Below, piece after piece: positions 9,001 to 12,000 of a stretch of 52,953 nt of DNA. Each line of letters opens with the position of its first letter. Positions within the stretch are counted from its first letter, which is position 1. Source of the stretch: a virus (lineage: Duplodnaviria > Heunggongvirae > Uroviricota > Caudoviricetes); IMG/VR virus record IMGVR_UViG_2531839474_000009. The stretch is one strand, 5' to 3'. Position numbers: made by a program.

Positions 9001-12000
9001 CGGCCTGTACCCATGATATGACAGGGACTAACGTTATTTGTTTGTTAGTAATTGAAACATCAGGTTTTTTTGTGATGTTTGTTGTCTGGTGTTCTTGATC
9101 AAGCCATCCGACAGGCAGGTCGAAACATTTTTCGATGTGCCGTGCCATGCTGTCACCGATATTTTTAGTAGCACCATCTCCCATAAACCTGCTGGTCTGG
9201 GTTGGCTCGCGATCAATCATGGTGGCAAAGGAAGAATTCCCGCCAACACCATCTCTCAGTTTTCTGGCGTTAGACCGCCGGATGTCATGGACTGTTTTCA
9301 TAACGAAATTAAAACCTTTGTACCGATAGGGTACAAGTATCTTGAAGGTTCATCTCAATCATGTAATATGTATATCGGAGGTACATATTGTATGAAAGCG
9401 TATTGGGACTCTTTAACCAAAGAACAGCAGGGCGAGTTGGCCGGAAAAGTTGGCTCAACACCAGGCTACTTACGGCTGGTTTTCAATGGTTATAAAAAAG
9501 CCAGTTTTGTGCTGGCTAAAAAACTTGAGCAATGCACGTCAGGTGCAATTACGAAATCTGACTTAAGACCGGATATCTATCCGAAAGATTAACAGAACAC
9601 CTTCAATTTTTAACCACAGAACGATGAGGCTAACCGTGGGTAAGCATCACTGGAAAGTAGAAAAACAGCCTGAGTGGTACGTGAAAGCTGTCAGAAAAAC
9701 TATCGCGGCGTTGCCGGGAGGTTACGCTGAAGCTGCTGAGTGGCTGGATGTAACAGAGAACGCTTTATTCAACCGCCTTCGTGCAGATGGCGATCAGATT
9801 TTCCCGCTGGGATGGGCAATGATTTTACAGCGCGCGGCTGGCACTCACTACATTGCGGATGCTGTCGCACAGTCTGCTGGTGGGGTGTTTGTATCGCTTC
9901 CTGAACTTGAGGAAGTAGAGAACGCCGATATAAACCAGCGCCTGCTGGAAGTCATCGAACAGATCGGGAGTTACTCAAAGCAGATTCGTTCGGCAATCGA
10001 AGATGGGGTAGTGGAGCCACACGAGCAGACAGCAATTAATGATGAGTTGTATCTGTCAATTTCGAAGCTCCAGGAGCATGCAGCACTGGTCTACAAAATC
10101 TTTTGCGCTCCAGAAAAGAGTGACGCCCGCGAGTGTGCAGCTCCGGGCGTCGTGGCGTTTTGTGTCTGTGGAGAAACTAACGCATGAACAGTTTAACGGC
10201 AAATAACCGTTTGTCGCAACAGCTGGTGGTCAGCGTCGCTGAACACCTGTTGTTACGGCATGAATGCAGATTACCAAATCACCTGGCTGTAAGTAACCAC
10301 AGAGAACTTTACCTGACTGTGGGGGGCGAGTTGTGCAGGAACTTAACCGCTGGTTTCGTGACGGAAGAGGGCTTTATGTCCATGTTATTCGTTGGGAGCC
10401 AGAAACACAGCGCGTTATCTATCTTCGCAAAGACTACCCGCATGAGTGCTTTAGTCCTTTGTGGAAATTCAGGCGTGATTTTGTTGAGTGTGAAGGACCA
10501 CCAGCACATTGATTCTGCCATTCCGGGACGTTACACTGTTCAGGCACCTTATAAAGCGGGTGCCGGGATTGGCGTCCTGGAAATGTTATCGGCGATATAT
10601 GACGCGCCAGCGTCTTTTTTATCGTCTGCGTCTGCGCACACCCAAATTATGGTGGGCTGGACGGGGGCACCGAAAGGTGCGCCGGTTTCCGATAACGCCG
10701 GTTACGCCAACCCCGTTCAGTTCACCACCAGCGAAATTGGCGTTTCCGGTGGTGAAGGTAATTCACTGTTATCGGAGGCTGCCATCATGGCTACTGTCCC
10801 AGCCCTCACTCGTCTGAATGATGAAGACTTACATAAACTCAGTTATGTAACAACTGCACTACGTGCTCTGCGCAAGGTAACTCTTTCGGATCCGCAGGCG
10901 CATCAGGTTCTGGTAGAAACCCTTCTTAACTTGCAGGCTGAACGTATTCGTCTGGCGGATAAGGCTAATTTTCATATTCACCGTCTCCTGAATATCAGCG
11001 GAGGGCATCGTCATGCTTAATCCGTTGATCCTCAATATTTGCCGTTTTCTTCAGCGTAAAAAAACATCAATTCCTACAGTTGGGCAGTGGTACACCACAC
11101 CTGCAGGGCATGTTCTACGTGTTAGCCTGGTTGACCGTGAATGCCAGAAGGTGATTTGTGAACCGCTGGGCCGTAATTACCGCGTCAGTATGCCGCTTAT
11201 AGCCTTTCGCTCCGGAAAAAACATGAAGCATCTCGGAGGTGCAGCATGAGTATGGAGCTGATGGTTAAAGCGATGAAAATTCGAGTGGGTAATCCATTGC
11301 GAAAACTGGTTCTGATCAAGCTGGCTGATAATGCCAGCGATCAGGGTGAGTGCTGGCCCAGCTACCAGCATATTGCTGACCAGTGCGAAATTAGCAAACG
11401 TTCTGTGATGAATCATATTGCGGCCCTTTGTGAGTCCGGGCTGGTAAAAAAAGTCACCCGGAAAGGTGAAAAAGGTAACTCAAGTAATATCTATCTCCTT
11501 CATCTGGATGGTGCAGGAGATTCACTAGGGGGTAGTGCAAATAATTCACTATCTGGTGCAGCAAATTCACCAGGTAGTGCAGGAGTTGCACCAGGGGGTA
11601 GTGCAGGAGATTCACCCAGAACCAGTCACTCTTTTGAACCAGTCAAAGAACCAGTCAATGAACCAATAGCTGTTGGTGCATCAGTTGATGAGTCCGTGCG
11701 AGTTCGTTCAAACCGACCGGAATACTCTCCGGAGTTTGAGCAGGCATGGCTGGCATATCCCAAACGTGCTGGTGGCAATTCAAAATCTGCAGCCTTCAAA
11801 GCCTGGAAAGCCCGTTTGAATGAGGGGGTAAACCCCGAAACCATGCTGGAAGGTGTGAAACGCTACGCGGGCTGGGTATCTGCGATGGGTAACAGCGGCA
11901 CACAATTTGTGAAACAGGCTGTCACGTTCTTTGGTCCGGATCGTCATTTCGAAGAATCCTGGGAAGTTCCTGCGGTATCTGCAGCTAGACGTGAGGACCT

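What the first reader, a model, noticed from the sequence alone, without database searches (positions are those of the whole stretch)
9624..11020. Early-right region lacks cII and has ambiguous coding frames
Where cII would be there are a 187-aa and a 278-aa ORF of unknown function. Within the second, an alternative frame (10333-10509) translates to an equally protein-like 59-aa peptide, so there may be a frameshift or mis-called gene.
Basis: seen in the sequence. Interest (0 to 1): 0.35.

Follow-up and report, generated by a model that had tools for sequence, protein, structure and literature searches.

The report
Overlapping genes and hidden RNA switch
The "278-aa gene" is not one ordinary gene: its reading frame runs over a real small gene in another frame and over a P1-type antisense-RNA switch, and the phage does have a CII-type regulator, so nothing is broken but current annotations of this common prophage region are misleading.

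Summary
The ORFs exist as described, and the alternative-frame 59-aa peptide (10333-10512) is a real gene. It matches Pfam DUF4222 (RgdR family). All 10 polymorphic sites among 38 haplotypes fall on its third codon positions.

cII is not missing. The 183/187-aa ORF is YmfL, which belongs to the phage-186 CII (CP76) family.

The 278-aa ORF (SfV orf37, "ash family protein") is a composite of four things:
- **A ymfM-like ORF** that starts at the ymfL stop.
- **The DUF4222 gene**, out of frame. Stop codons in the long frame are actively avoided: 0/114 risky codons against 52/120 in safe contexts.
- **A complete P1 immI / Gifsy-1 isrK-type RNA cassette.** It has a promoter-like site, an IsrK-like leader with a1/b1 sites and a terminator, and C4 antisense RNA (82.8 bits). 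The b2/a2 targets cover the Shine-Dalgarno sequence.
- **A 77-aa ORF (10787-11020)** at the P1 icd position.

The C4 loops covary with both target sets across 10 specificity types. The Pfam "Ash" domain coincides with this RNA cassette and shows no amino-acid-level selection.

There is no frameshift or sequencing error: the sequence is identical in another genome. The parts are known kinds. The overlap and the annotation conflict, including K-12 ymfM versus DUF4222, appear not to have been noted.

The parts
9636..10187 (+). ymfL: CII-type (phage 186 CP76 family) regulator, 183 aa.
   Evidence: Pfam PF06892 E 5e-15. PHROG 101 'CII-like transcriptional activator' E 1e-72. NCBIfam NF041471 YmfL equivalog, 168.5 bits against a cutoff of 90. 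PGAP and K-12 use the GTG start. It lies directly after the cro-like ymfT (9392-9592) and opposite the LexA-like repressor ymfK (8627-9301).
10184..10489 (+). ymfM-like ORF segment. Its ATG overlaps the ymfL stop (ATGA), and GGAG lies at 10170-10173. It has no stop codon of its own and reads on into the rest of ORF278.
   Evidence: It is positionally homologous to K-12 e14 ymfM. PHROG 1170 (the YmfM family) matches residues 47-98 only. In three other lineages the non-overlapping N-part has pN/pS 0.39-0.46 against about 1.0-1.2 in the other frames, with no stops. In the window's own lineage the evidence is weak: 7 synonymous to 16 non-synonymous sites, spread evenly over codon positions.
10333..10512 (+). 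DUF4222 (RgdR-family) small protein gene, 59 aa. It has a GTG start with a G-rich SD at 10321-10326 and lies out of frame inside ORF278.
   Evidence: Pfam PF13973 E 9.5e-14 and PHROG 1343 1-59/59. pN/pS is 0.09-0.17 in this frame against 1.7-2.3 in the ORF278 frame. 10/10 polymorphisms are at third positions. hhalign to RgdR/ECs1581 gives 97.5%. AF2 pLDDT is 85.7, a small beta-barrel. It is a stand-alone annotated gene in Serratia, Yersinia, Morganella and Klebsiella phages.
10509..10537 (+). Promoter-like site TTGATT-N17-TACACT, placed to start transcription at about 10544 (the isrK-like 5' end).
   Evidence: It aligns with TTGAC..TATATT upstream of isrK in Gifsy-1 and VT2-Sakai and with the P1-like RCS47 leader. 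It scores 8/12 to consensus, so the generic scan did not list it. Inferred, not shown.
10544..10620 (+). IsrK-like leader sRNA. It carries b1 (10569-10575 TTGGCGT), a1 (10584-10592 TGTTATCGG) and an intrinsic terminator (stem 10601-10614 plus a U run).
   Evidence: Rfam RF01394 scores 63.7 bits against a gathering score of 50, E 1e-12, full length. The terminator was found independently. The c4-a1b1 motif RF03163 scores only 21.4 bits, below the gathering score of 46.7. a1/b1 covary with the C4 loops: 14 of 16 pairs have double-sided changes, and 95% of cells are paired against 32-50% when slid.
10645..10732 (+). C4-type antisense RNA. The a' loop is 10686-10697 (UUUCCGAUAACG) and the b' junction is 10703-10710 (UACGCCAA). 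The AUG at 10649 corresponds to the Gifsy-1 orf45 start and to ORF278 M156.
   Evidence: Rfam RF01695 scores 82.8 bits against a gathering score of 45, E 3.6e-16, full length. All three internal helices are 100% paired across 13 sequences, with 12 compensatory pairs. The same hit is present in every Ash-bearing relative.
10737..10778 (+). C4 target region. b2 is 10737-10743 (TTGGCGT). a2 is 10767-10778 (TGTTATCGGAGG), which contains the Shine-Dalgarno GGAGG at 10774-10778.
   Evidence: Both are complementary to b' and a'. Across 10 specificity types in 87 loci, plus Gifsy-1, VT2-Sakai and P1-like RCS47, the targets change together with the loops. The conserved island 10775-10811 survives the mosaic breakpoints.
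10787..11020 (+). ORF77: a 77-aa ORF at the P1 icd position, probably the protein whose translation the cassette controls. Its function is unknown.
   Evidence: GGAGG lies 8 nt upstream of the ATG. In relatives the same ATG opens Rha/Ant antirepressor genes (MATIPTL...). In P1-like RCS47 it opens icd (MATVPTP). There is no Pfam or NCBIfam hit. Similarity to Icd is confined to the first 8 residues.
10184..11020 (+). ORF278 (= SfV orf37, the 'ash family protein' of 278 aa): a composite open frame running through all of the above.
   Evidence: It is open in all 82 close loci and in ST64B, C. braakii and the Stx phages. The Pfam Ash domain (residues 117-210, nt 10532-10813) coincides with the RNA cassette. 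pN/pS is 0.8-0.96 in all three frames there. In all 10 types this frame has 0 stops, against means of about 2.3 and 4 in the other frames.
11013..11249 (+). ORF78: a distant DUF4222-like paralogue in the canonical DUF4222 position. Its stop overlaps the ATG of the replication gene at 11246. It lies just outside the flagged span.
   Evidence: PHROG 1153 E 2.6e-42. The 59-aa DUF4222 peptide also touches PHROG 1153 at E 0.008. It aligns with the DUF4222 family at 23% identity, with the conserved G, V, P and F columns.

Best explanation
Window 9624-11020 is the stretch after cro in the early-right operon of an e14/SfV-type lambdoid prophage. It is densely packed and multiply encoded. It is not two unknown genes.

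(1) ymfL encodes a CII-type regulator of the phage-186 CP76 family.

(2) A ymfM-like reading frame starts at the ymfL stop codon, which suggests translational coupling.

(3) The 59-aa DUF4222 (RgdR-family) gene starts 149 nt later in a different frame, with its own Shine-Dalgarno sequence. It is the strongly selected coding frame there. The long frame is only kept free of stop codons.

(4) A P1-immI / Gifsy-1-isrK-type RNA switch follows immediately:
- A promoter-like site.
- A short terminated leader RNA (IsrK-like) carrying decoy sites a1/b1.
- The C4 antisense RNA.
- Target sites b2/a2, of which a2 covers the ribosome-binding site of a 77-aa ORF at the P1 icd position.

Proposed mechanism. 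C4 RNA pairs with b2/a2 and blocks translation of ORF77. Through overlapping stop/start codons it probably also dampens ORF78 and the replication genes downstream. The leader RNA, or the same a1/b1 sites in cis, competes for the C4 loops and relieves the block.

The 278-aa ORF and the Pfam 'Ash' domain are the conceptual translation of this composite.

Shown:
- The gene and RNA family memberships.
- Frame-specific selection.
- Stop-codon avoidance in the long frame.
- Three-way covariation between the C4 loops and their targets.

Inferred:
- Promoter use.
- The direction of regulation.
- Coupling to the replication genes.
- Whether the long frame is translated in this lineage.
For: Context and identity:
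- The region is SfV orf36-orf38 and e14 ymfL/ymfM.

DUF4222 as a real gene:
- Pfam and PHROG hits.
- Frame-specific pN/pS of 0.09-0.17.
- 10/10 polymorphic sites at third positions.
- It is a stand-alone gene next to replication genes in distant phages and in Sakai Sp7 (RgdR).
- A confident AF2 fold.

The long frame is kept open across DUF4222:
- P(open | amino-acid sequence) is only 0.02-0.14 per sequence.
- About 49 stops are expected over 25 distinct sequences, and none is observed.
- Leu/Val/Ile codons followed by A/G never end in A/G (0/114), against 52/120 in safe contexts (Fisher 8e-19). Loci with a closed +1 frame use them 19/40 times.

The RNA cassette:
- C4 and isrK score above gathering score in the window and in every Ash-bearing relative.
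- The terminator was found independently.
- 10 specificity types have matched a1/a'/a2 and b1/b'/b2.
- Formal counts give 95% of cells paired against 32-50% when slid, with 0/500 shuffles reaching the observed value.
- The cassette is collinear with Gifsy-1 isrK-orf45-anrP, VT2-Sakai and P1-like RCS47 c4-icd-ant.

No protein-level selection in the 'Ash' part: pN/pS 0.8-0.96 in all frames, with even codon-position variability.

Published mechanisms for the homologous systems:
- IsrK/orf45/AnrP: PMC4825925.
- P1 c4 represses Ant synthesis: PMC8546580 and the references in it.
Against: - No expression data were available. Promoter use, C4 processing and the sign of regulation rest on homology.
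- In the window's own lineage the ymfM-like N-part shows no clear purifying selection. It has also lost the PVPG..F.Y motif shared by the other three lineages. It may be a decaying remnant there.
- The ORF278 frame is open through the RNA cassette in all 10 types, and the C4 AUG is always in frame with the ATG at 10787. So some translation through the 'Ash' region, as with Gifsy-1 orf45, or even a long fusion product, cannot be excluded.
- YmfL has no pairwise similarity to 186 CII itself. 'CII-type' is a profile-level assignment only.
- The sequences compared are related by descent, so the Fisher and shuffle figures are not true probabilities.
Confidence: 0.75

Rival explanations
1. PGAP-style model. 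There are three conventional, separate protein genes: ymfL, DUF4222, and a genuine 176-181-aa Ash-family regulatory protein starting at GTG 10475 or 10490. The RNA hits are incidental or merely overlap its coding sequence.
For: - PGAP annotates exactly this in the identical genome.
- Pfam Ash scores 65 bits.
- Many diverse Ash-domain proteins in the 1.8-billion-protein library begin 3-12 residues before the domain, which corresponds to ORF278 residues ~98-104.
- The frame has no stops in any of the 10 cassette types.
Against: - The Ash domain maps onto the promoter, isrK, C4 and a2/b2.
- pN/pS is 0.8-0.96 in every frame, and variable sites are spread equally over codon positions.
- Variation is concentrated in the RNA specificity loops and their targets.
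- In Gifsy-1 the equivalent frame is broken between isrK and orf45. There the published work found the nucleotide sequence, not the amino-acid sequence, to be conserved (PMC4825925).
- There is no convincing SD before 10475 or 10490.
Confidence: 0.12
2. ORF278 is one ordinary protein-coding gene, as annotated for SfV orf37. The 59-aa alternative-frame ORF is a chance or non-functional ORF.
For: - It is annotated as such in SfV, 2H10 and many NCBI records.
- More than 100 clusters of exactly 278 aa exist.
- The ORF is intact in all relatives.
- The long frame avoids stop codons.
Against: - Every measure of amino-acid-level selection in 10333-10474 favours the other frame.
- DUF4222 is a Pfam family with stand-alone members and a characterised member, RgdR.
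- Two Rfam families score above gathering score inside the ORF.
- Residues 1-46 match no family.
Confidence: 0.06
3. Programmed -1 ribosomal frameshift from the ymfM-like frame into the DUF4222 frame, giving an N-terminally extended DUF4222 protein instead of two products.
For: - The DUF4222 frame is -1 relative to the ymfM frame.
- The frame relation is the same in the window and in e14, despite a 30-nt length difference upstream.
Against: - In several lineages (ST64B, C. braakii, mEp390, L099, L117, L119, L123) a stop codon in the DUF4222 frame lies 0-2 codons before its start. This leaves no room for a shift site.
- DUF4222 has its own SD: AAGGAG 8 nt upstream in e14, and a G run in the window.
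- No slippery heptamer was seen.
- Stand-alone DUF4222 genes exist.
Confidence: 0.03
4. Sequencing or assembly frameshift error, or a recent pseudogene, in 10300-10520.
For: Two protein-like frames overlap.
Against: - The region is 100% identical over 2 kb in an independent complete genome, and 465 E. coli genomes carry at least 80% of it.
- The overlap is conserved in about 30 divergent Enterobacteriaceae loci.
Confidence: 0.01

Closest known systems
Phage P1/P7 immI operon (P51 - a1/b1 - c4 antisense RNA - a2/b2 - icd - ant), seen here in the P1-like phage RCS47
   Same: - The order of elements is the same, and all of it aligns at the nucleotide level.
- C4 scores above gathering score.
- The loops are complementary to an upstream and a downstream target pair, and the downstream a2 covers the SD.
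- The first ORF after the targets begins MATVP in both.
   Different: - The cassette sits inside the pR early operon of a lambdoid prophage, between a DUF4222 gene and the replication genes. In P1 it is a separate immunity locus.
- There is no ant gene in this window. Relatives such as mEp460 and ST64B do have a Rha/Ant gene fused at the same ATG.
- ORF77 is unrelated to Icd beyond 8 residues.
- One frame stays open through the whole cassette.
Salmonella Gifsy-1 isrK-orf45-anrP locus (Hershko-Shalev et al. 2016, PMC4825925)
   Same: - The isrK family hit, with its terminator.
- A C4-like element whose 5' AUG is the orf45 start.
- An SD and ATG of a downstream gene at the same place.
- That paper already reported that the nucleotide sequence is conserved while the amino-acid sequence is variable.
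   Different: - In Gifsy-1, orf45 ends in an AUGA overlap, out of frame with anrP. Here the equivalent frame continues in frame into ORF77.
- Gifsy-1 carries the cassette after antQ in the late-control region.
- The published model treats IsrK as an activator and does not refer to C4. The equivalence orf45 region = C4 is my inference.
E. coli K-12 e14 ymfL-ymfM (YmfM = SfiC cell-division inhibitor, Ansari et al., bioRxiv 10.1101/2020.11.19.390815)
   Same: - The ymfL sequences are 88% identical at the nucleotide level.
- The same ATGA-coupled start (MNSLT...).
- The same out-of-frame DUF4222 gene.
   Different: - In e14, SfII, Klebsiella and mEp390 types the ymfM frame stops 20 nt before the DUF4222 stop, giving 109-113 aa. 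The replication gene follows directly.
- In the window the stop is absent, and the RNA cassette, ORF77 and ORF78 are interposed.
- The window's N-part is divergent and matches PHROG 1170 only in the overlap.
Coliphage 186 early operon apl-cII-fil-dhr
   Same: A CP76-family CII gene is followed directly by a small cell-division inhibitor and then by another small host-directed gene overlapping it. This is the same functional layout as ymfL-ymfM-DUF4222.
   Different: - No homology was found: hhalign of the YmfM N-part against Fil gave probability 0.1%, and DUF4222 against Dhr gave 0.7%.
- YmfL has no pairwise similarity to 186 CII.
- fil and dhr overlap by only 14 nt.
RgdR (ECs1581) of EHEC O157 Sakai prophage-like element Sp7 / CP-933C (Flockhart et al. 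2012, PMC3378721)
   Same: - The DUF4222 domain (Pfam 82 bits; hhalign 97.5%, 33% identity).
- The gene lies immediately upstream of a replication (primase) gene with overlapping stop and start.
   Different: - RgdR is 99 aa, with N- and C-terminal extensions and an RGD motif that the window's protein lacks.
- Its effects on LEE and motility have been shown only for that variant.

Membership tests
C4 antisense RNA (Rfam RF01695; P1/P7 c4, P4 CI RNA) | Covariance-model score at or above the curated gathering score over the full model | tested here: met
   82.8 bits against 45, model positions 1-87/87, E 3.6e-16.
C4 antisense RNA (Rfam RF01695; P1/P7 c4, P4 CI RNA) | A long closing helix plus two hairpins, supported by compensatory changes | tested here: met
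   The helices are 100% paired in 13 sequences. 12 of 27 pairs have double-sided changes. Slid controls give 37-46% paired.
C4 antisense RNA (Rfam RF01695; P1/P7 c4, P4 CI RNA) | Loop a' and junction b' complementary to downstream targets a2/b2 that occlude the RBS of the next ORF | tested here: met
   a' 10686-10697 pairs with a2 10767-10778, which includes GGAGG. b' pairs with b2 10737-10743. They covary across 10 types plus 3 distant loci.
C4 antisense RNA (Rfam RF01695; P1/P7 c4, P4 CI RNA) | Upstream duplicate targets a1/b1 (Rfam c4-a1b1 motif RF03163) | tested here: inconclusive
   The CM score of 21.4 is below the gathering score of 46.7 in the window. Gifsy-1 and VT2-Sakai score 48-50. 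Complementarity and covariation of a1/b1 with a'/b' are clear, however: 14/16 pairs are compensatory.
C4 antisense RNA (Rfam RF01695; P1/P7 c4, P4 CI RNA) | Processing to a stable ~77-nt RNA, and repression of a downstream antirepressor | not testable with these tools
   No expression data. There is no ant gene in this window; relatives carry Rha/Ant at the same ATG.
IsrK sRNA (Rfam RF01394) | CM score at or above gathering score, ending in an intrinsic terminator | tested here: met
   63.7 bits against 50, positions 1-77/77. The stem 10601-10614 plus T run was found by an independent scan.
IsrK sRNA (Rfam RF01394) | Own promoter. Downstream orf45 translationally coupled (AUGA) to an antirepressor gene. 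| tested here: not met
   A promoter-like site is conserved but unproven. The orf45-equivalent AUG at 10649 is present, but its frame runs on in frame into ORF77 rather than ending in AUGA, and no anrP is present.
Phage 186-type CII (Pfam PF06892 Phage_CP76) / NCBIfam YmfL | Profile score above the curated cutoffs | tested here: met
   PF06892 56 bits against 26. NF041471 168.5 bits against 90.
Phage 186-type CII (Pfam PF06892 Phage_CP76) / NCBIfam YmfL | Position directly downstream of the cro/apl-like gene in the early lytic operon | tested here: met
   ymfK(-) / ymfT(+) / ymfL(+). Compare 186 cI / apl / cII.
Phage 186-type CII (Pfam PF06892 Phage_CP76) / NCBIfam YmfL | Activates a leftward establishment promoter | not tested
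   No binding-site model is available. Pairwise similarity to 186 CII is nil.
Lambda-type CII (Pfam Phage_CII) | Profile match | tested here: not met
   No such hit at E <= 0.01 for any ORF between cro and the replication gene.
DUF4222 / RgdR family (Pfam PF13973) | Profile score above cutoff, and homology to the characterised member | tested here: met
   51 bits against 27. hhalign to ECs1581 gives 97.5%, E 5.6e-12.
DUF4222 / RgdR family (Pfam PF13973) | Under purifying selection as a protein, and folds | tested here: met
   pN/pS 0.09-0.17. 10/10 polymorphic sites are synonymous. AF2 pLDDT 85.7.
YmfM (PHROG 1170; e14 cell-division inhibitor) | ATGA-coupled start after ymfL. A conserved N-terminal half (Q-L-R-x-x-P-V-P-G ... 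F-x-Y). A length of ~109-113 aa ending about 20 nt before the DUF4222 stop. | tested here: not met
   The start is conserved. The N-terminal motif is degenerate. The PHROG matches only residues 47-98. There is no stop, so the frame continues.
Ash protein family (Pfam PF10554) | Profile score above cutoff | tested here: met
   65.5 bits against 26, residues 117-210.
Ash protein family (Pfam PF10554) | Behaves as a protein-coding domain (amino-acid-level purifying selection) | tested here: not met
   pN/pS is 0.82-0.96 in its frame, the same as in the other two frames. Variable columns by codon position are 40/37/36 and 26/27/27. The domain is coextensive with the RNA cassette.

The most novel reading that the evidence does not exclude
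One reading frame is deliberately kept open from the ymfL stop codon onward. It passes through an out-of-frame protein gene, a promoter, a terminated sRNA gene and the C4 antisense RNA gene, and then enters the regulated ORF.

On this reading, ribosomes coupled to CII-operon translation plough through the RNA switch during lytic transcription and remodel it. Translation through the cassette would then decide whether the C4 and IsrK structures form. That would link early-operon translation to control of the antirepressor or replication genes.

Two corollaries follow:
- The published e14 'YmfM/SfiC' filamentation phenotype may depend on the embedded RgdR-family protein rather than, or as well as, the 112-aa YmfM. 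The cloned ymfM ORF contains 53 of the 59 DUF4222 codons together with its AAGGAG SD.
- The very large 'ash family protein' annotation class may be a translated RNA locus.
Probability: 0.2. Interest if true: 0.7.

Novelty: new member of a known kind. Interest (0 to 1): 0.45.

Why it matters
This stretch is present in hundreds to thousands of E. coli, Shigella and Salmonella genomes and in Stx-converting phages. It is annotated in mutually exclusive ways:
- SfV calls one 278-aa gene.
- PGAP calls DUF4222 plus an 'ash family protein'.
- Curated K-12 calls ymfM.
- None of the annotations I inspected shows the two RNA genes.

Recognising the true layout has four consequences:
- It restores a CII-type regulator and an RNA-based second immunity layer to the genetic map of e14/SfV-like phages.
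- It explains the mosaic 'immunity types' in the middle of the supposed protein as matched antisense and target specificities.
- It flags a Pfam family whose conservation is probably RNA-driven.
- It shows that experiments assigning SfiC filamentation to ymfM did not separate two overlapping genes. That question can be settled with single silent-in-one-frame mutations.

Tried and rejected
- **Lambda-type CII.** No Pfam hit among the ORFs.
- **Homology of YmfM to 186 Fil, and of DUF4222 to 186 Dhr.** The identical gene order suggested it. hhalign gave probabilities of 0.1% and 0.7%, so the resemblance is positional only.
- **YmfL against 186 CII by BLASTP.** Nothing.
- **ORF77 against P1-like Icd.** Only the first 8 residues match.
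- **Programmed frameshift joining the ymfM and DUF4222 frames.** Rejected because stop codons sit immediately before the DUF4222 start in several lineages.
- **IMG/VR scan with the 59-aa peptide.** It returned only 97-98% identical loci. These were useful for polymorphism counts but not for divergence. Diversity came from tblastn on phage records and from the GTDB scan.
- **Foldseek of the DUF4222 model against the PDB.** Only generic SH3/KOW/Tudor-like barrels, best E 0.047, so no functional lead.
- **PDB sequence searches with YmfL and ORF77.** Nothing usable.
- **The sigma-70 scan.** It found no promoter in 9200-11400 at its threshold. The proposed isrK promoter rests on alignment to Gifsy-1 only.
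- **P1 c4 primary papers.** They could not be read in the library. Details of P1 a/b sites beyond what searches show come from my own knowledge of Citron & Schuster 1990/1992 and Heinrich et al. 1994.

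
Full report
**Observation.**

The alternative-frame peptide is not a chance ORF. 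It matches Pfam DUF4222 at E 9.5e-14 and covers PHROG 1343 end to end at E 1e-36.

**Context.**

The 2-kb stretch 9300-11300 is 100% identical to E. coli UTME-12. It is 97-99.5% identical to many other E. coli chromosomes and to phages 2H10, SfV and Ayreon. 465 of 5426 complete E. coli genomes carry at least 80% of it.

It is the immunity and early-right region of an e14/SfV-type lambdoid prophage:
- A LexA-like repressor, ymfK (8627-9301, minus strand).
- A cro-like gene, ymfT (9392-9592).
- ymfL.
- The problem region.
- A 78-aa ORF.
- An HTH/DnaD-like replication gene, here cut near its 3' end by an IS3-family insertion.

Three incompatible annotations exist for the problem region:
- SfV calls one 278-aa gene, orf37.
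- PGAP calls DUF4222 (10333-10512) plus an 'ash family protein' from GTG 10475.
- Curated K-12 calls a 112-aa ymfM at the homologous place in e14.

**cII is not missing.**

The first ORF is YmfL. It passes three family models:
- Pfam Phage_CP76 ('phage regulatory protein CII'), 56 bits against a cutoff of 26.
- PHROG 101 ('CII-like transcriptional activator').
- The NCBIfam YmfL equivalog, 168 bits against a cutoff of 90.

Its likely start is GTG 9636, with GAGG 6 nt upstream. The assignment is profile-level only: BLASTP against 186 CII itself finds nothing, and no function was tested. No lambda-type CII domain is present.

**The 59-aa frame is the selected coding frame.**

I collected 82 near-identical loci from IMG/VR, 12 divergent phage loci and 33 loci from GTDB species representatives.

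- In the near-identical set (38 haplotypes), all 10 variable sites within 10333-10474 are third positions of the DUF4222 frame. They are synonymous there and amino-acid-changing in the ORF278 frame.
- Across four divergent lineages, Nei-Gojobori pN/pS over DUF4222 codons 1-53 is 0.09-0.17 in the DUF4222 frame (0.40 in one lineage). In the ORF278/ymfM frame it is 1.0-2.3.
- In Serratia, Yersinia, Morganella, Fraca and Klebsiella phages, DUF4222 is annotated as a stand-alone small gene. In the first four its stop overlaps the start of the replication gene; in Klebsiella ST147-VIM1phi7.2 its end overlaps the start of the next gene, annotated as a transcriptional regulator.
- The characterised family member RgdR (ECs1581) sits in the same way in front of a primase gene. 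It aligns to the family at hhalign probability 97.5% (PMC3378721).
- AlphaFold gives a confident small beta-barrel (pLDDT 85.7). Its PDB neighbours are only generic SH3/KOW-like domains.

**The long frame is nevertheless kept open.**

In about 29 Enterobacteriaceae loci, an ORF starts with M-N/T-S-L at an ATGA overlap with the CII-like gene. It runs across DUF4222 in the +1 frame. In e14, SfII, Klebsiella and mEp390 types it ends 20 nt before the DUF4222 stop, giving the 109-113-aa YmfM.

Its N-terminal, non-overlapping half falls into four sequence families that share a scaffold.
- In three of them, pN/pS is 0.39-0.46 in this frame and about 1.0-1.2 in the other frames.
- This frame has no stops, while the other frames have dozens.
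- So that half encodes a protein.

Within the overlap there is no amino-acid constraint in this frame, but stop codons are avoided:
- Given each DUF4222 protein sequence and local codon usage, the +1 frame would be open with probability only 0.02-0.14.
- About 49 stops are expected over 25 distinct sequences. None occurs.
- Leu/Val/Ile codons followed by A or G never end in A or G (0/114). The same amino acids in harmless contexts do so 52/120 times.
- In six loci whose +1 frame is closed, the risky codons are used 19/40 times.

These sequences are related by descent, so the Fisher value of 8e-19 is not a true probability. Synonymous divergence among them is high, however (pS 0.4-0.67).

I conclude that ymfM and DUF4222 are a genuine out-of-frame overlapping pair.

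In the window's own lineage the picture is weaker:
- The N-part has lost the shared PVPG..F.Y motif.
- It matches PHROG 1170 only in the overlap.
- It shows 7 synonymous to 16 non-synonymous polymorphisms, spread evenly over codon positions.
- It is still open in every locus, and it has no stop of its own. That is why it merges into a 278-aa ORF.

**The 'Ash' half is an RNA switch.**

An Rfam scan found two full-length RNA genes inside ORF278:
- isrK at 10544-10620 (63.7 bits against a gathering score of 50).
- C4 antisense RNA at 10645-10732 (82.8 bits against a gathering score of 45).
- A sub-threshold c4-a1b1 target motif at 10531-10583.

An independent scan found the isrK terminator at 10601-10614 plus a T run. 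Every Ash-bearing relative has both RNAs at the same offsets. The e14 and SfII types have neither.

The C4 hairpin loop a' (10686-10697) is complementary to two sites:
- a1 (10584-10592), inside the isrK-like RNA.
- a2 (10767-10778), which includes the GGAGG 8 nt before the ATG at 10787.

The junction b' (10703-10710) is complementary to b1 (10569-10575) and b2 (10737-10743).

Among 87 loci there are 10 different a'/b' types. In each type the upstream and downstream targets have changed to match.

Formal counts were made on 13 sequences, including Gifsy-1, VT2-Sakai and the P1-like phage RCS47:
- 95% of cells are paired, against 32-50% when the partner is slid by 1-3 columns.
- 25/46 and 14/16 pairs have changes on both sides.
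- 0/500 shuffles reach the observed values.

The whole cassette aligns base for base with the Gifsy-1 isrK-orf45-anrP locus and with the c4-icd-ant region of RCS47. The alignment includes a -35/-10-like pair placed to start transcription at 10544.

The AUG at the 5' end of C4 (10649) is the start of Gifsy-1 orf45. The ATG at 10787 opens different genes in different elements:
- icd (MATVPTP) in the P1-like phage.
- Rha/Ant antirepressors (MATIPTL) in mEp460 and ST64B types.
- In the window, a 77-aa ORF with no family match.

**What the Pfam Ash domain is.**

The domain spans ORF278 residues 117-210, or nt 10532-10813. It is coextensive with the promoter-like site, isrK, C4 and the targets. Over this region:
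- pN/pS is 0.8-0.96 in all three frames.
- Variable columns are spread evenly over codon positions (40/37/36 and 26/27/27).
- The sequence therefore evolves as RNA or DNA signal, not as protein.

This agrees with the published remark that orf45 is conserved in nucleotides but not in amino acids (PMC4825925).

The ORF278 frame nevertheless has no stop in any of the 10 types, against means of about 2.3 and 4 stops in the other frames. The C4 AUG is always in frame with the ATG at 10787, at a distance of 138 or 141 nt. Translation through at least the orf45-equivalent part is therefore plausible. In Gifsy-1, orf45 translation is required for coupling to anrP.

In Gifsy-1 the upstream 'Ash' frame is broken, so a continuous Ash protein is not a general feature.

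**Mechanism proposed.**

Shown:
- The anatomy.
- The family memberships.
- Frame-specific selection.
- Covariation between the C4 loops and their targets.

Inferred by homology with P1 c4 (which represses Ant synthesis; and my own knowledge of Citron & Schuster) and with IsrK:
- C4 RNA pairs with b2/a2 and hides the SD of ORF77.
- The a1/b1 sites compete for the C4 loops and relieve the block, either in cis on the long transcript or in trans on the short terminated leader.
- The ORF77 stop overlaps the ORF78 start, and the ORF78 stop overlaps the replication-gene ATG. The switch may therefore also gate replication-gene expression, as the related P4 CI RNA does for its replication operon (my own knowledge).
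- The isrK terminator should also act on pR transcripts.

**Rivals.**

- A sequencing error is excluded by identity across independent genomes.
- A single conventional 278-aa protein is contradicted by the selection data and by the RNA genes.
- A programmed -1 shift into the DUF4222 frame is made unlikely by stop codons 0-2 codons before the DUF4222 start in several lineages, and by its own SD.
- The PGAP model, with a genuine 181-aa Ash protein, remains possible but is not supported by any amino-acid-level signal.

**Comparison and novelty.**

Every component belongs to a described kind: CP76-type CII, DUF4222/RgdR, C4 and IsrK RNAs, and overlapping phage genes. The sequence itself is common.

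The following seem not to be recorded in the annotations I saw, or in the open-access papers searched:
- The ymfM/DUF4222 dual coding.
- The equivalence of the 'Ash' domain with the c4/isrK cassette.
- The consequence for the e14 SfiC assignment. The published work cloned and deleted the ymfM ORF, which contains 53 of 59 DUF4222 codons and its AAGGAG SD. PGAP annotates DUF4222 rather than ymfM even in K-12 re-assemblies.

The gene order CII, then a division inhibitor, then a small gene mirrors 186 cII-fil-dhr. There is no detectable homology, however.

**Verdict.**

There is no frameshift and no missing cII. The 278-aa 'gene' is a composite of an overlapping gene pair and a P1-type antisense-RNA switch. 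Interest is moderate.

Noticed in passing
window 12000-13312 (+), 32645-33954 (-), 49399-50709 (-): Three identical ~1.31-kb IS3-family elements, each with an ALIL frameshift pseudoknot (Rfam, 120.9 bits). The first is inserted in the 3' end of the HTH/DnaD-like replication gene, relative to the otherwise identical prophage in NZ_CP157095. This leaves a 260-aa ORF instead of 272 aa.
   Followed up: partly
window 11013-11249: The 78-aa ORF (PHROG 1153) looks like a distant paralogue of DUF4222. It occupies the canonical DUF4222 position, with its stop overlapping the replication-gene ATG. The RNA cassette plus ORF77 may therefore have been inserted between two DUF4222-like genes.
   Followed up: partly
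L003 (K-12 e14) 3323-3681 = NC_000913.3 1203822-1204180: The curated ymfM ('cell division inhibitor YmfM', 112 aa) overlaps an unannotated 59-aa DUF4222 ORF by 160 nt. That ORF has a TTG start at 3502, preceded by AAGGAG 8 nt upstream. PGAP annotates the DUF4222 gene instead of ymfM in re-sequenced K-12 strains. The published pBAD-ymfM and delta-ymfM experiments do not separate the two frames.
   Followed up: partly
L121, L124, L125, L126 (Providencia), L122 (Erwinia): around 1960-2170: In these prophages the +1 frame of DUF4222 has no stops despite P(open) of 0.002-0.05. It holds a 58-68-codon ORF. In the Providencia loci this ORF has a hydrophobic, membrane-helix-like N-terminus (MKTQIILIGCIWISAVFVFVSYVM...). 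This may be an independent second case of dual coding in the same gene.
   Followed up: no
window 10532-10813; Pfam PF10554: The Pfam 'Ash protein family' domain, and PGAP's 'ash family protein' product name, coincide with the isrK-C4-target RNA cassette. No amino-acid-level selection is seen there. The family may be largely a translated non-coding locus.
   Followed up: yes
L133 (E. coli O157 Sakai Sp7) 23305-23604: RgdR/ECs1581, the only characterised DUF4222 protein, lies immediately upstream of a primase gene with a 4-nt overlap. Its position relative to a replication gene is the same as for DUF4222 genes in lambdoid phages. This hints at a replication-linked primary role rather than regulation of type III secretion.
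   Followed up: partly
L131 (VT2-Sakai) 1179-1430 and many Stx phages; L130 (Gifsy-1) 1179-1435: The same isrK-C4 cassette occurs unannotated in 933W/VT2-type Stx phages, between ninE and an antirepressor-like gene. In Gifsy-1 the published 'orf45' coincides with a C4 antisense RNA hit of 69 bits. I did not find this link stated in the IsrK paper sections I read.
   Followed up: partly
window 10509-10817: A third forward frame is also open here for 102 codons (TTG start) across the RNA cassette. It has stops in most other cassette types, so it is a by-product of GC-rich structured RNA.
   Followed up: yes
L002 (SfV) b2 site, alignment A8 columns 205-214: In the SfV-type cassette, b2 reads TTGCCGT whereas b1 reads TTGGCGT. 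That is one mismatch against b', so pairing at b2 may be weaker in that type.
   Followed up: no
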